A model generated the notes under the pieces. That model worked only from the letters and a program-made list of their open reading frames with translations, was not told where the DNA came from and did not search any database. The position numbers and the translations under genes were made by a program. From Eledone cirrhosa (Eukaryota), in the NCBI GenBank assembly GCA_964016885.1, contig OZ024743.1, positions 359,786,001-359,850,000 of the forward strand: DNA of 64,000 bases, written 5' to 3'. Below, piece after piece: positions 1,551 to 63,805 of this stretch (the first letter of the stretch is position 1; every line of letters begins with the position of its first letter).

Positions 1551-1605
1551 TACTTTGGTTCGTGGAAACGTTCCCTGGCAAAGAACGTTTCCACGAACCA
1601 AAGTA
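1551..1605. repeat. Perfect 23-bp inverted repeat with 9-nt loop
   Basis: tactttggttcgtggaaacgttc (1551-1573) / gaacgtttccacgaaccaaagta (1583-1605). Confidence 0.9.
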
Positions 1606-1922
1606 TCGTCTTCCTGTCTTCCTCCGGTTGCAACGTTTTTTGAAATATCCACTTCTGCGTTTAGAGATTGACTTTGTTAGTTTCAGAATATCCCGTTAAA
1701 GCAGCGATTCTTTGCTTAAACTTTAATCTGTTATTTTAATAAATATATATATATATATTCGGCTACGGTGGCTGTTGACTTCACAATCACTGTTTTCATT
1801 TTGTCTGGCCGCCGATATACGATCTCGCTGAAATTATATATATATATATATATATATATATATATATATATATAAATCAGGAAAGAAGATTGACATGGTT
1901 TGCTATACAAAAAAGGTTTTTA

Positions 1923-2044
1923 ATCTCATTGCTGACAGTTGTTTCTCTGAACTGGTATGTCTAGAGATCGCTATTCGCTTGTTTTCACGTTACTCGATCG
2001 CCAATACAAAATTATAACCAGTCAGTTCTTCGGAGCATGCGAGA
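1923..2044 (-). ncRNA. Hammerhead ribozyme motif (variant core CCGAAGA) in 3' pLTR of the PLE
   Basis: Minus strand reads gcatgct-CCGAAGA-actgactggt...accagttcaga-GAAA-caact-GTC-agcaatgag. Stems I-III can pair. Confidence 0.65.
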
Positions 2045-2399
2045 ATGAAGAGAATATACAGGCATGAAAGGAATATACAGGCTACTATATGAAGTAGTAA
2101 TGGCATTCAGTTAGAACAATAACAACAATTACAACAATGCTATTAATAAATTATTTGAGGAGACCCTGACATTACATTAGGTGGGGGGTATAGTGTATCT
2201 AAGATTTCGGCGTGTAAAACTAGCTGACATGAAGCAGAAGTAAAAGTGTGGCATATACGGAGTATCGTAGGGTGTATTGTATCAATTTAAAATTTTAAAG
2301 ATAAGCCGGTGTTTACAGTCTTTCTTTTCATCTTCAATAACATACATGAATGGGACAACACTGTCAAAGCTTAATAGTGGGCGAGTTAATACAGAGGTT

Positions 2400-2545
2400 A
2401 TATACATATATATATATATATATATATATATATACACATATATACATACACAGATACACACACATACATATATATATACACACGCATGTGTACACAGACA
2501 CATACATACACATCAATATACACTCGTACACAAATATACATACAT
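2400..2545. repeat. Compound (TA)n/(CA)n microsatellite inside the PLE 3' UTR
   Basis: Seen directly. A homologous tract occurs at 56699-56803 in the second PLE copy. Confidence 0.9.
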
Positions 2546-2809
2546 GCAAAGAGATAAGCGTGCTGATTGTAATTATGGCAAAAGGAAGGTAAAGTTACAT
2601 TGTAGTAGTGATTTGAGAAATACTTGGATTTAGGATCAAGTGATGGCAGCAGCTGAGAAGGAATAAGTTTATGGGTTGATGAGGTACTTACAGACATTTG
2701 CGTGGTATAGACTTGTGAAGGCTAGAGTGTACTTAATGAGTATATTTCTGTGGTGATTTATGCAGGGTAGTGGGTATCCTAGTTTAAAGCTATGTTGTGT
2801 TGGTTCGAT

Positions 2810-60599: not shown

Positions 60600-61250
60600 T
60601 TACTGAAAATACTATTTTCCAACAATGACGTTAGTTTTTATATTAACTGCACAAATGGAAATGCCACTTTTAATTATTTTTATAACAAATAAAAGAAGTG
60701 TTGCAGAGAGTTCTGGTGACCATATTATCTTTACTCTCATCAGATATTTATTCCTGGTCCTCTCCGTAATCTTGGGTTCATCATATTGGACATTCTTGTC
60801 CGGTCCAAGATATCTGTAGATGTCACTTAACTGTAGAAGTTGTATCGTCAAACTTCAGTTTTAAATATCCAAGGAGGGCAACACGTTTCGCATGAATACC
60901 CATAAGTATTTTAGGAGATTGGGTGAGTAATGACATTTGATAGCCGTTGGGGTAGTTCTTGGGTGCTTTTGGTACTTTTGGCATACATTCGTACGAGCTC
61001 TTGCTAATAAAAATTGAAATTCGTAAGCCAGTAACCTGTTTTGTGGTCTAGGCCTTAGGTCTTACTGTTTGAAATTCTCTGTAGGATTTTTTTCAGTATT
61101 GCGCCGTTTACTTCCAATTGGTTTTGTTGAACATCCTGGCAGTAACCTGCTTTAGTTTTTCGAGCTTTGTAACGGGCATGTTGAACTTGTTGTTTGTTTT
61201 CCATGCTATCTGAAGTAAATCAGATATGAATATGCCAAATATTTGTGTTT
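60600..61250 (-). mobile_element. Decayed R4/Dong-like LINE RT fragment
   Basis: YRYLG..KYLMRVKIIWSPELSA resembles the R4-clade post-RT motif (YKYLG..Y..R...I..SEL). Confidence 0.55.
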
Positions 61251-62859
61251 TACATATCTGTCTGCTTGTAAGTCTTTCACTATTTATCTGTTAGCCTGTC
61301 TTTCTGGTTGACTATATCTCTTACGAGAGATATGGTTATAAGTAAATAATTCATTTAATGTATTATTTATGTATAATATGTAATAACTTTTGTTTGTTTG
61401 TGACGTGAAGTGGCTTACGAAATTGTTTGAATGTAACGATTTAACACATACTAAAACTCGTAGTTCGCTACCAAGCTTGTAGAGTGGTTGAGTTTCTAGT
61501 TGAGATGTTGTTGGCGTTAGCATTGATGATAACGTTTACATTGGTGGTGCCGATGGTGGTGATGGAGCTGGTGGTACTAGTTGTCATAGTGGGGGTGATG
61601 TGGTATTGAGAGTTGTGATGGCGGTGATGGTGATAGTAATAGTAGTAGATTTGGTGATGGTTGTGAGTTGTCGGAGTTAGTGTTGGCGATAGTATTCATA
61701 GTGATGTTTGAGCTATTGTTGTTGGTTATGATAGTGATGAAATTGGTGACGGTAGAGGTGGCAGTGGTAGTAGTAGCCATAACGATGGAGGTCATGGTGG
61801 TGGTGTACAGAATGTCAATAGAAAGAGAATATTGCGGATACGTTTAAATTTCCGGTTCCATTTTCTGACTATAAACACTAAATTTACTGTAACAAGCAAG
61901 ACGGGGAACAATGAATAAATTTAATGATATTAAATCTATAAATTTCGCCATATAGGATGAATAAAACTTACAAATCACACGTAAGGAAGGAGAAAAAAAA
62001 TCAATAGATTAGAAAATGTCCTCTTATGAAGGCGATTCAATCGGACAATGGACACTCAGCTACTGGTGGTGGCAAGGTCTAAATCAGTGATCTAATATCT
62101 GATCAGTAAATTCTAATTTTCAACATTATCAGCATTTAATACGTATCTAGAATATTACATATATATATTATACATACACACACACATAGACACACAAACA
62201 CCCCCCCACACACACACACACACATACACACATATATATATATATAATATATATATATATATATATATATATATATATATATTCATATATATATATATTT
62301 ATATATGCATAAAATATTCTAGACGTGAATTACTCTACATTATATATCAAATATACATGTTCATAATCATATATATATAAAATATATATTTGTCTCTCTC
62401 TCTCTCTCTCTGTCTCTCTGTCTCTCTCAGTCTCTCTCTCTCTCACTTACTCTCTCTCCCACTCTCTCTCTCTCTCTCTCTTTCTATATATATATATATA
62501 TATATATATATATATATGCCAGGTCACTTTTGAGTCCTACTGGTAACAAGTAAACCACTACAACCTGTCGCATGGTCGAGTCTTCGGCGACTAAACTGGC
62601 AAGCCCACCAAGTTTACTTGGTGAGGAGGTGATTTTGGACACTCTGCAGGACAAAAAACAAAACCTGACAAAGGGCGGAAGAACTCATAAGAGGCGACGG
62701 CCATCCAAAAATGTGTAAATATGTATATACACATGTACATATGTTTGTGTATGTATATGCGTGTGTATATGCCTGGGGTGTCAGGGAGGGGCATGTACCT
62801 CTGTAGGGAGGGCTAGCCATGCCCTTTTCAGGACAGCTCATCCTGCATTGGATTCCACC

Positions 62860-63490
62860 TGACACTCAGCTCTCACCCGTGGCCCCAAGAAGCTGTAGCA
62901 TGCGACAGTGGCCACACCCCGGTAAATCGCCTTGGCTGGCGGGGCGAACCAGGTTGCGGGTAGCCGGACGGATCTGAAACCCCACGGTGAGTTAGATAGG
63001 GGATGCCTGCCCCTGCATGCGAAGACTGGACCCGGCGGAGTGAGTGGTGGAGGACAGCATCGTCCCAACGGTCACAAAGGCGGCGACAGCAAGCGGTGTG
63101 GAGCGCTAGGGCACGGCAAGGCACTACAGACGTCGTGGCTATCCACTGCAGCCAAGGAAGTCCCTGGTCGTGACGGTCCTCCGTACCACCGGATTCTGGC
63201 TTCTGCGGTCAAGTAAGTGGGACCGTCACTGTGCACTTGCCCTCCCACTATAAACCTTTCCCGCACAGGTTTATTTAGCGTGCACTCCCAATACTCTGCG
63301 GCGATGGGCGAGAGGTGGAGGTAACAGGTGGAGATAAATTCTGGGAGTTGCCAGTCTGACTCCGGTCTCTTCCCCTTCCCCCACTGTCCCAGGACCTGCA
63401 AGTCAAGGGTCGGCCTCCTCATCCACCTTCGTGCCCACGGCAGACGGGAACAACAATAAATAAGATGTCATCATCGTTTACGATGGATAT
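62860..63490 (+). mobile_element. Probable internally deleted RTE (BovB-like) element: GC-rich 5'-UTR-like segment joined to the ORF C-terminus and 3' UTR
   Basis: 63368-63460 translates as LFPFPHCPRTCKSRVGLLIHLRAHGRREQQ*, resembling the RTE C-terminal C2H2 finger. No EN or RT coding sequence between it and the GC-rich leader. Confidence 0.6.
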
Positions 63491-63617
63491 CCAAAATATA
63501 TATATCCTGGGAGTGTAACTTGGTGTTACTGTAGCTTCACCCGGGTGAGCACTCGAGGTTTAGGTTCACTTCAGTGTCGAGGTGTAGAGCTAGACAGAGT
63601 GTATTATAGTGAAATAC

Positions 63618-63805
63618 GATAACAAGGACGATTGGTTACTCCCCCATTACGTTTATTGGTTGGTGACGCGCGTTTCTCCACCGACGAGCCGCGGATTACA
63701 GAGTAAGGTCAGATCGATACAGATCGAACCTTGGGCTGATCGGTGGAAAAAGGCGCGTCACCCACCAATAAACGTAATGGGGAGTAACCAATTGTCCTTA
63801 TTATC
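63618..63805. repeat. Palindrome with ~66-bp arms abutting (TA)n
   Basis: 63618-63684 is an imperfect reverse complement of 63740-63805. Contains GAAACGCGCGTC on the minus strand. Confidence 0.88.

What the first reader, a model, noticed from the sequence alone, without database searches (positions are those of the whole stretch)
1551..63805. Recurrent ORF-less, (TA)n-anchored palindromes carrying hammerhead ribozymes from unrelated sequence families
Seen: at least five inverted-repeat elements with no recognisable similarity to each other (1551-1605, 7467-7762, 8890-9001, 55085-55823, 63618-63805). Four end directly at (TA)n. Each contains either a full HHR core or the GAAA-palindrome-NUH half. 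The full-length PLE here has the same inverted-end architecture. Known: PLE pLTRs carry HHRs, PLEs form inverted 5' ends, and retrozymes are non-autonomous HHR-bearing retroelements. Inference: these are either abortive fold-back insertions of many distinct PLE families, or a class of non-autonomous palindromic ribozyme retroelements mobilised in trans. If transcribed they would make long dsRNA hairpins, which are potential ADAR or siRNA substrates.
Basis: partly seen in the sequence, partly recalled or inferred. Interest (0 to 1): 0.72.

Follow-up and report, generated by a model that had tools for sequence, protein, structure and literature searches.

The report
Twin-primed Penelope stumps and ribozyme circles
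These mirror-image DNA pieces are short head-to-head copies of five abundant Penelope-type jumping elements (four protein-coding families and one gene-less repeat), not a separate palindromic class; the two halves nearly always end at two different fixed sites, which likely means that both cut DNA strands were extended on the element's RNA.

Summary
Each belongs to a family with hundreds to thousands of genomic matches. Four (1551, 7467, 8890, 63618) are 3' ends of protein-coding Hydra-like Penelope elements. The fifth (55085) belongs to an ORF-less 659-nt tandem unit, a retrozyme-like circle. Fold points vary from copy to copy, so there is no fixed palindromic element. Each family has two fixed 3' ends about 80-170 nt apart (the PLE 'tail'). 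In 126 of 131 head-to-head insertions with both ends called, one arm is tailed and the other is not. In about 35, neither arm contains the other, which a single fold-back copy cannot produce. Best reading: both target strands are primed on the element RNA, one at each start site, and the two cDNAs join. The architecture is published (inverted pLTR, one-sided tail, TA targeting, opposite-strand hammerheads); I found no paper deriving twin priming from it. This scan reported the same pattern before, in this genome and in at least 45 genomes. Expression, cleavage and dsRNA processing are untested.

The parts
1551..1742 (+). Family A stump: 5'-truncated 3' end of a protein-coding Hydra-like PLE, tail-less end at TA; only 23 bp of the inverted arm remain (1551-1573), folded at an intrinsic hairpin
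1680..1730 (+). Family A hammerhead-like motif (family core CAGAAGA, U4A, in 44 of 45 motifs), broken by a deletion in this copy
1872..5551 (-). Family P main arm: near full-length Hydra-like PLE, tail-less 3' end at TA (1872), 5' partial pLTR with internal tail
2813..5255 (-). P ORF (RWK, DKT, RT, CxCX5C linker, GIY-YIG); interrupted by a frameshift near 4780 and a stop near 4617
5538..6062 (+). Family P inverted arm, tailed (about 170 nt), ending at TA; neither P arm contains the other
5729..5828 (+). P hammerhead variant, core CCGAAGA (U4C, 20 of 22 motifs), 81-nt stem II; second copy at 2033-1934 on -
7384..7762 (.). Family B palindrome: tailed left arm (7384-7548, - strand), tail-less right arm ending at TA; 3' end of a protein-coding Hydra-like PLE
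7639..7718 (+). B type I hammerhead: CUGAGGA, 61-nt stem II, palindromic stem III AUAAUUAU
8820..8999 (.). Family C palindrome: tailed left arm with a stem III deletion, tail-less right arm; fold point inside hammerhead stem II, so only the 3' half is present (family core U3-A8 variant in 4 of 5 motifs seen)
54987..55817 (.). Family D palindrome: tailed left arm (54987-55431, - strand), tail-less longer right arm (55432-55817), TA on both sides; part of an ORF-less 659-nt tandem unit
55462..55530 (+). D canonical type I hammerhead (CUGAUGA, 50-nt stem II, ACCAUGGU stem III, 6-bp stem I), with compensatory changes against sister families
63509..63814 (.). Family E palindrome: tailed left arm (63509-63683, - strand), tail-less longer right arm ending at TA; 3' end of a protein-coding Hydra-like PLE
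63681..63759 (+). E hammerhead, decayed in this copy; family core CUGACGA with 60-nt stem II and ACGCGCGU stem III

Best explanation
The palindromes are short, head-to-head, 5'-truncated insertions of several Penelope-like retroelement families (four protein-coding, one gene-less tandem unit), each likely built at its site by twin priming rather than copied as a palindrome. Shown: multi-copy families, variable fold points, two fixed 3' ends per family, one arm at each end, microsatellite (mostly TA) at both ends, upstream RT/GIY-YIG ORFs for A, B, C and E, an ORF-less head-to-tail unit for D, and a hammerhead or core variant upstream of the first end in every family. Inferred: the GIY-YIG nicks both strands of a (TA)n target; one 3'-OH primes at start site 1 and the other at start site 2 (the tail end), probably on the same RNA; both cDNAs stop early, often at RNA hairpins such as hammerhead stem II, and join through short homology. 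Also inferred: D, its sisters and H are copied from hammerhead-processed circular or multimeric RNA by a PLE protein in trans.
For: One-tail rule: 126 of 131 head-to-head pairs with both ends called are tailed plus tail-less, across 7 families, against about 49% expected if ends were chosen independently. Family H repeats it: 13 of 14 inverted arms end at site 1 opposite a tailed arm (query selected tailed arms). Either arm can be the longer one: tail-less longer in 36, tailed longer in 25, within 15 nt in 65. In 41 pairs neither arm is contained in the other; 35 remain after I set aside 6 with internal deletions, including window B, D, E and P. Arms of one insertion are closer to each other than to other insertions in 114 of 133. 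ORF link on the same strand: A 14 of 30 loci with RT/EN hits (orientation checked); B 12 of 30; E 3 of 30; C in L151 and L161, with the 3' UTR shared by L201, L210 and L227. D: the tail runs into the 167-nt segment in all 30 loci found with a junction query (some are the same insertion), 29 continue through the hammerhead, and none turns into an ORF; longest stop-free stretch 62 aa. In L381 and L383 both arms cross the unit junction. In vitro, a Poseidon PLE cuts and extends both strands and starts at two sites that define the tail (PMC11167929).
Against: 83 of 126 discordant pairs (53 of them family C, nearly symmetric) are also compatible with a fold-back copy. Three real exceptions exist (L004 and L118 tail-less on both arms, L086 tailed on both). 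Higher arm-to-arm identity could come from gene conversion rather than a shared RNA. PMC11167929 found no difference in start site between strands in vitro and found hammerhead cleavage dispensable, so neither the asymmetry nor circular templates are shown biochemically. No autonomous partner for D was found; one C/D junction without TA (L151) has both arms tailed and is ambiguous. Only the top 30 loci per search were examined out of hundreds to thousands of candidates, which favours young and long matches; one search selected tailed C arms. (TA)n hides any TSD, so single-event insertion is inferred.
Confidence: 0.75

Rival explanations
1. Self-priming fold-back (proposed for Adineta PLEs): one strand is made, folds on itself and is copied back; staggered resolution of the hairpin leaves a tail on one side.
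For: Also predicts one tail per insertion. Junctions often lie at hairpins or short homologies (C in stem II, A at an intrinsic hairpin). 83 of 126 pairs fit it. Proposed in PMC3846280.
Against: It requires one arm to be a copy of the other. In about 35 pairs the tail-less arm carries 15 to more than 3000 nt that the tailed arm lacks, and lacks the tail itself, including four of the window's elements.
Confidence: 0.13
2. A dedicated class of non-autonomous palindromic ribozyme elements, transcribed and mobilised as whole palindromes.
For: C and E palindromes cluster in size (C mostly 100-133 nt between first ends, E about 200 nt). D is non-autonomous.
Against: The size clustering reflects the palindromic queries and stalling in stem II. 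Junction sequences differ copy to copy. Non-palindromic queries return single-armed copies and ORF-linked copies. Most D copies are direct tandems or have unequal arms.
Confidence: 0.04
3. Two independent insertions into the same TA tract in opposite orientation, with later deletion of the sequence between them.
For: Nested insertions into TA tracts are very common here, and some cross-family head-to-head junctions lack TA.
Against: It does not predict 126 of 131 tail discordance, same-family pairing, or closer arm-to-arm identity.
Confidence: 0.05
4. Fold-back assembly artefacts.
For: Palindromes next to microsatellites are hard to assemble. No long read was available to span them.
Against: Arms differ by 1-11% in B, D, E and P and are asymmetric. 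The same rule holds at more than 100 loci. One 61-nt short-read contig matches across E's fold point with 0 differences, about 30 letters each side, at the tool's 31-letter bar and possibly from the same sample.
Confidence: 0.01

Closest known systems
Hydra-clade EN+ Penelope-like elements (Craig et al. 2021, PMC8557442; passages and section 11 read)
   Same: C-terminal GIY-YIG, RWK and DKT motifs, CxCX5C linker, CxxC/CxH motifs, hammerheads, (TA)n targeting, inverted 5'-truncated copy, tail at one end.
   Different: Tails here are about 80-170 nt, not 30-40. 3' UTRs reach about 1-1.5 kb. Hammerheads have 13-81-nt stem II and core variants (U4C, U4A, U3-A8), and Rfam did not report them. Clade placement is by motifs, with no tree.
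Inverted-pLTR PLE insertions of Adineta vaga (Arkhipova et al. 2013, PMC3846280; passages read)
   Same: Head-to-head inverted pLTR with the tail on one of the two; palindromes at the junction.
   Different: That paper proposes self-priming on an antisense template; the arm containment data here favour independent priming of both arms.
Dual opposite-strand min-HHRs 100-700 bp apart in Schistosoma mansoni (Cervera and De la Pena 2014, PMC4209133; parts 1-2 of 4 read)
   Same: The same phenomenon, read there as truncated PLEs; the U3-A8 core variant is also described, and a circular RNA template is proposed.
   Different: In the parts read, no analysis of ends or mechanism; helix II is 7-8 bp there and much longer here.
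Metazoan non-LTR retrozymes (PMC7229834, passages read; Li et al. 2026, 10.64898/2026.07.22.740005, part 1 of 5 and passages read)
   Same: D, D' and H are ORF-less head-to-tail units with one type I hammerhead per unit; proposed there as non-autonomous PLE derivatives.
   Different: Units are 542-700 nt (170-400 nt circRNAs in PMC7229834), mostly 1-2.3 copies, dispersed in (TA)n, often two-armed, with PLE two-end signature. Circular RNA is not shown here.
Poseidon PAc in vitro (Frangieh et al. 2024, PMC11167929; parts 1-2 of 4 read) and L1 twin priming (recalled, not read)
   Same: Two internal RT start sites bracket the tail; both target strands are cut and extended; inversion by priming both strands.
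   Different: PAc showed no strand preference between start sites in vitro, whereas genomic pairs here use one site each. L1 twin priming gives largely non-overlapping segments (recalled); here the arms overlap and form palindromes.

Membership tests
EN+ PLE, Hydra clade (families P, A, B, C, E) | RT followed by C-terminal GIY-YIG in one ORF | tested here: met
   P: (75 homologues at E<=1e-10, mostly unnamed; Pfam gave no hit). A, B, C, E by tblastn with the P protein.
EN+ PLE, Hydra clade (families P, A, B, C, E) | RWK and DKT motifs | tested here: inconclusive
   Met in P. N-termini of A, B and E were not recovered; L211 and L167 show DKT/RWK but their family assignment is uncertain.
EN+ PLE, Hydra clade (families P, A, B, C, E) | CxCX5C linker and CxxC/CxH motifs around the conserved E and N | tested here: met
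   CxCX5C in all five; CxH in B, C, E and the second P copy; CxxC in P and A (definition).
EN+ PLE, Hydra clade (families P, A, B, C, E) | Phylogenetic placement with Hydra reference proteins; absence of CCHH | not tested
   No reference set was fetched and no tree was built.
EN+ PLE, Hydra clade (families P, A, B, C, E) | Insertion into (TA)n; inverted 5'-truncated copy; one-sided tail | tested here: met
EN+ PLE, Hydra clade (families P, A, B, C, E) | Canonical hammerhead in the terminal repeat | tested here: inconclusive
   Canonical cores in B and E; variant cores in P (U4C), A (U4A) and C (U3-A8); activity unknown. U4C is reported as weak but viable in a viroid.
Non-LTR retrozyme (family D) | ORF-less head-to-tail repeat unit | tested here: met
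   659-nt unit, longest stop-free stretch 62 aa, no tblastn hit to the P protein; tail-to-unit junction in 30 of 30 loci and in short-read contigs.
Non-LTR retrozyme (family D) | One type I hammerhead per unit | tested here: met
   26 of 27 motifs have CUGAUGA. Across D, D' and D'' 96.6% of cells pair, 4 pairs change on both sides, slid controls give 29-50%; this rests on few independent changes between subfamilies.
Non-LTR retrozyme (family D) | Self-cleavage and accumulation as circular RNA | not testable with these tools
   No RNA run was listed.
Dedicated palindromic element class (MITE-like) | Fixed arm and spacer boundaries shared among copies | tested here: not met

The most novel reading that the evidence does not exclude
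Hydra-type Penelope proteins act as an asymmetric dimer that loads the two nicked strands of a (TA)n target onto two fixed start sites of one hammerhead-ligated circular RNA, so that every two-armed insertion records one start at each site. Gene-less circles of 540-700 nt hijack this machine in trans. The long-stem-II hammerheads with U4C, U4A or U3-A8 cores are functional, possibly protein-assisted, ribozymes that standard searches miss.
Probability: 0.35. Interest if true: 0.7.

Novelty: new variant of a known kind. Interest (0 to 1): 0.42.

Why it matters
How PLEs make inverted ends and one-sided tails is described as unresolved in the papers read (PMC8557442, PMC3846280, PMC11167929). The one-tail rule, plus arms that do not contain each other, separates twin priming from self-priming and gives a sharp prediction for the existing in vitro system. 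The same signature on ORF-less units ties retrozyme-like circles to PLE machinery. Long-stem and core-variant hammerheads imply that ribozyme counts in such genomes are underestimates. The elements themselves are ordinary transposon debris.

Tried and rejected
Rfam scan: no hammerhead family at E<=5. A first descriptor with stem II up to 40 nt missed D, E and P. Pfam gave nothing for the P ORF. My first 'A tail' reference was wrong (an upstream repeat) and was replaced. Search for an autonomous partner of D through diverged relatives and the unit junction found only more ORF-less units. Seven cross-family head-to-head candidates without TA were inspected: six look like nested or truncated neighbours, and L151 (C inverted, D forward, both tailed) is unresolved. 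Run-off at the ribozyme cut: 5 of 28 E short arms start 56-59 nt before end 1 (predicted cut at 56), but the junctions I read include C17 or a GT microhomology, so this is not shown. A-to-G skew in inserted copies: none. Sequencing runs: no RNA holder listed, which is no evidence on expression; the three runs laid are contigs of unknown library from one sample. Literature searches for twin priming in PLEs (listings only for papers not named as read) found no paper on it. Subscription papers are not covered. Supplements of PMC8557442 (Hydra families, HHR lists) were not read and bioRxiv supplements are closed; either may already list these families or motifs.
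Full report
Observation. Self-comparison confirms inverted repeats at all five places; I label them A (1551), B (7467), C (8890), D (55085) and E (63618), and the long element at 1872-6062 P. Arm identities are 23/23, 72/81, 37/40, 330/340, 65/73 and 345/350. The 3' modules of the families share no similarity beyond one 13-nt match. A is different: 23 bp of inverted arm, then a sense arm to the TA tract at about 1742.

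Hammerheads. Rfam found none among 95 matches at E<=5. The 'GAAA-palindrome-NUH half' occurs 91 times against 53+/-8 in shuffles, so it is weak evidence. Family-specific patterns over all loci gave these cores: B CUGAGGA 25 of 26, D CUGAUGA 26 of 27, E CUGACGA 35 of 40, P CCGAAGA 20 of 22 (U4C), A CAGAAGA 44 of 45 (U4A), C U3-A8 in 4 of 5. Stem II is 13-81 nt and stem III is palindromic or a short hairpin. These patterns require the rest of the motif, so they count only near-intact copies. On an alignment of 18 of the 47 D-type motifs listed, the hammerhead stems pair in 96.6% of cells with 4 pairs changed on both sides, against 29-50% for slid controls; the changes are few events between subfamilies. 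U3-A8 is described in PMC4209133, and U4C is reported as weak but viable (PMC3088659). Activity is untested.

Families. The window lies in a 3.0-Gb animal genome. First-look candidates were D 3413, B 1696, C 1174, E 1431, A 344 and P 1741; 40 were scored and 30 fetched per search. Fold points differ from copy to copy. Inner lengths are all distinct for D (13 of 13, 454-1338 nt), A (18 of 18, 96-3337), B (10 of 10) and P (11 of 11). C clusters at 100-133 nt because it folds inside stem II, yet its junction sequences differ. Walking upstream linked A, B, C and E to RT plus GIY-YIG ORFs on the same strand: A 14 of 30 loci with hits, B 12 of 30, E 3 of 30, C in L151 and L161 across a 1.0-1.2 kb 3' UTR. 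All have the CxCX5C linker, and P has RWK and DKT, the marks given for the (TA)n-targeting Hydra clade. No tree was built. D is different: its tail runs into a 167-nt segment and back to the hammerhead, a 659-nt unit with no ORF. All 30 loci found with a junction query show this (some are the same insertion, and the query selects for the junction), and independent short-read contigs show the 658-nt return. Sister units D' (3877 candidates, about 73% identical) and D'' are built the same way. No coding partner was found.

Two ends, one per arm. Every family ends at TA at either of two fixed sites about 80-170 nt apart. From 181 candidate head-to-head pairs I dropped 13 cross-family and 4 poorly covered ones and collapsed 11 as flank duplicates, some probably wrongly, leaving 153. 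Of these, 131 had both ends called: 126 tailed plus tail-less, 3 both tail-less, 2 both tailed. On inspection two of the five exceptions are pipeline mispairings (L063, L277) and three are real. Independent choice would give about 49% discordance. The tail-less arm is longer by 15 nt or more in 36, the tailed arm in 25, and 65 are nearly equal. In 41 pairs neither arm is contained in the other; setting aside 6 with internal deletions leaves 35, including window B, D, E and P. The other 85 do not discriminate. Arms of one insertion are closer to each other than to other insertions in 114 of 133, which fits one template or later gene conversion. Family H was mapped separately and follows the rule (13 of 14).

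Mechanism. A fold-back copy cannot give a tail-less arm with extra 5' sequence plus a tailed arm, because neither is a template for the other. Independent priming of both nicked strands, one at each start site, explains the rule, the either-arm-longer pattern and the microsatellite on both sides. This is inference. It is consistent with the in vitro finding that a Poseidon PLE extends both strands from two internal start sites, although that study saw no strand preference and found cleavage dispensable. For D, arms that cross the unit junction, on both sides in L381 and L383, need a circular or multimeric template; circular RNA is proposed for PLEs and reported for retrozymes, not shown here.

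Known and new. Inverted 5'-truncated copies, a tail at one end and TA targeting are published. Opposite-strand hammerhead pairs 100-700 bp apart were noted in Schistosoma, and retrozymes are argued to be non-autonomous PLEs. I found no paper that derives twin priming for PLEs. This scan's notes report the same reading in at least 45 genomes and for other retrozyme families of this genome. My reading was recorded before seeing them; they prompted the same-RNA, cut-site, A-to-G and hybrid checks, which gave supportive, inconclusive, negative and inconclusive results. What this locus adds is the count across seven co-occurring families, long tails, and long-stem or core-variant hammerheads.

Verdict. 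Observation partly confirmed, interpretation partly supported. These are ordinary but informative PLE stumps plus a retrozyme-like unit: a new variant of a known kind, interest 0.42.

Noticed in passing
window 7995-8809 (-): Family H: 1.5 copies of an ORF-less 542-nt unit with a canonical hammerhead (8324-8257); 2804 candidates; head-to-tail tandems, and inverted arms ending at site 1.
   Followed up: partly
window 6999-7026 (+) and 9059-9087 (+), 22529-22626 (+): Further canonical type I hammerhead motifs; the first two lie just downstream of CA or TA tracts and are probably stumps of other PLE families.
   Followed up: no
L259-L288 (family D'): Stem III and its loop are hypervariable among copies that are otherwise about 97% identical.
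   Followed up: no
L151:2228-5173: A family C arm with RT/EN is joined head-to-head, without TA, to a family D arm; both are tailed. Possible two-RNA hybrid or nested insertion plus deletion.
   Followed up: partly
window 8890-8920; L063, L067, L070: The same microhomology deletion of the stem III hairpin occurs in one arm only, tailed or tail-less, in independent C insertions, suggesting RT skips the hairpin.
   Followed up: partly
window 14980-15380 and 55828-57600: Two more truncated, tailed copies of family P; the latter inserted in the TA tract next to D and has core CCGAUGA.
   Followed up: partly
L169-L198 (family B 3' UTR): B has a 3' UTR of about 1.5 kb with several hundred nt of degenerate (GTT)n, and its tailed end abuts (CA)n in some copies rather than (TA)n.
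   Followed up: no
window 9450-15011, 27171-31682, 52037-54118, 1-1030: Several copies of an APE-RT non-LTR element with a zinc-knuckle-like ORF1.
   Followed up: no
window 1248-1436, 6612-6801, 22900-24140, 32840-33670, 38170-38420, 57880-58106: An abundant, often nested repeat of about 170 nt, SINE-like by appearance.
   Followed up: no
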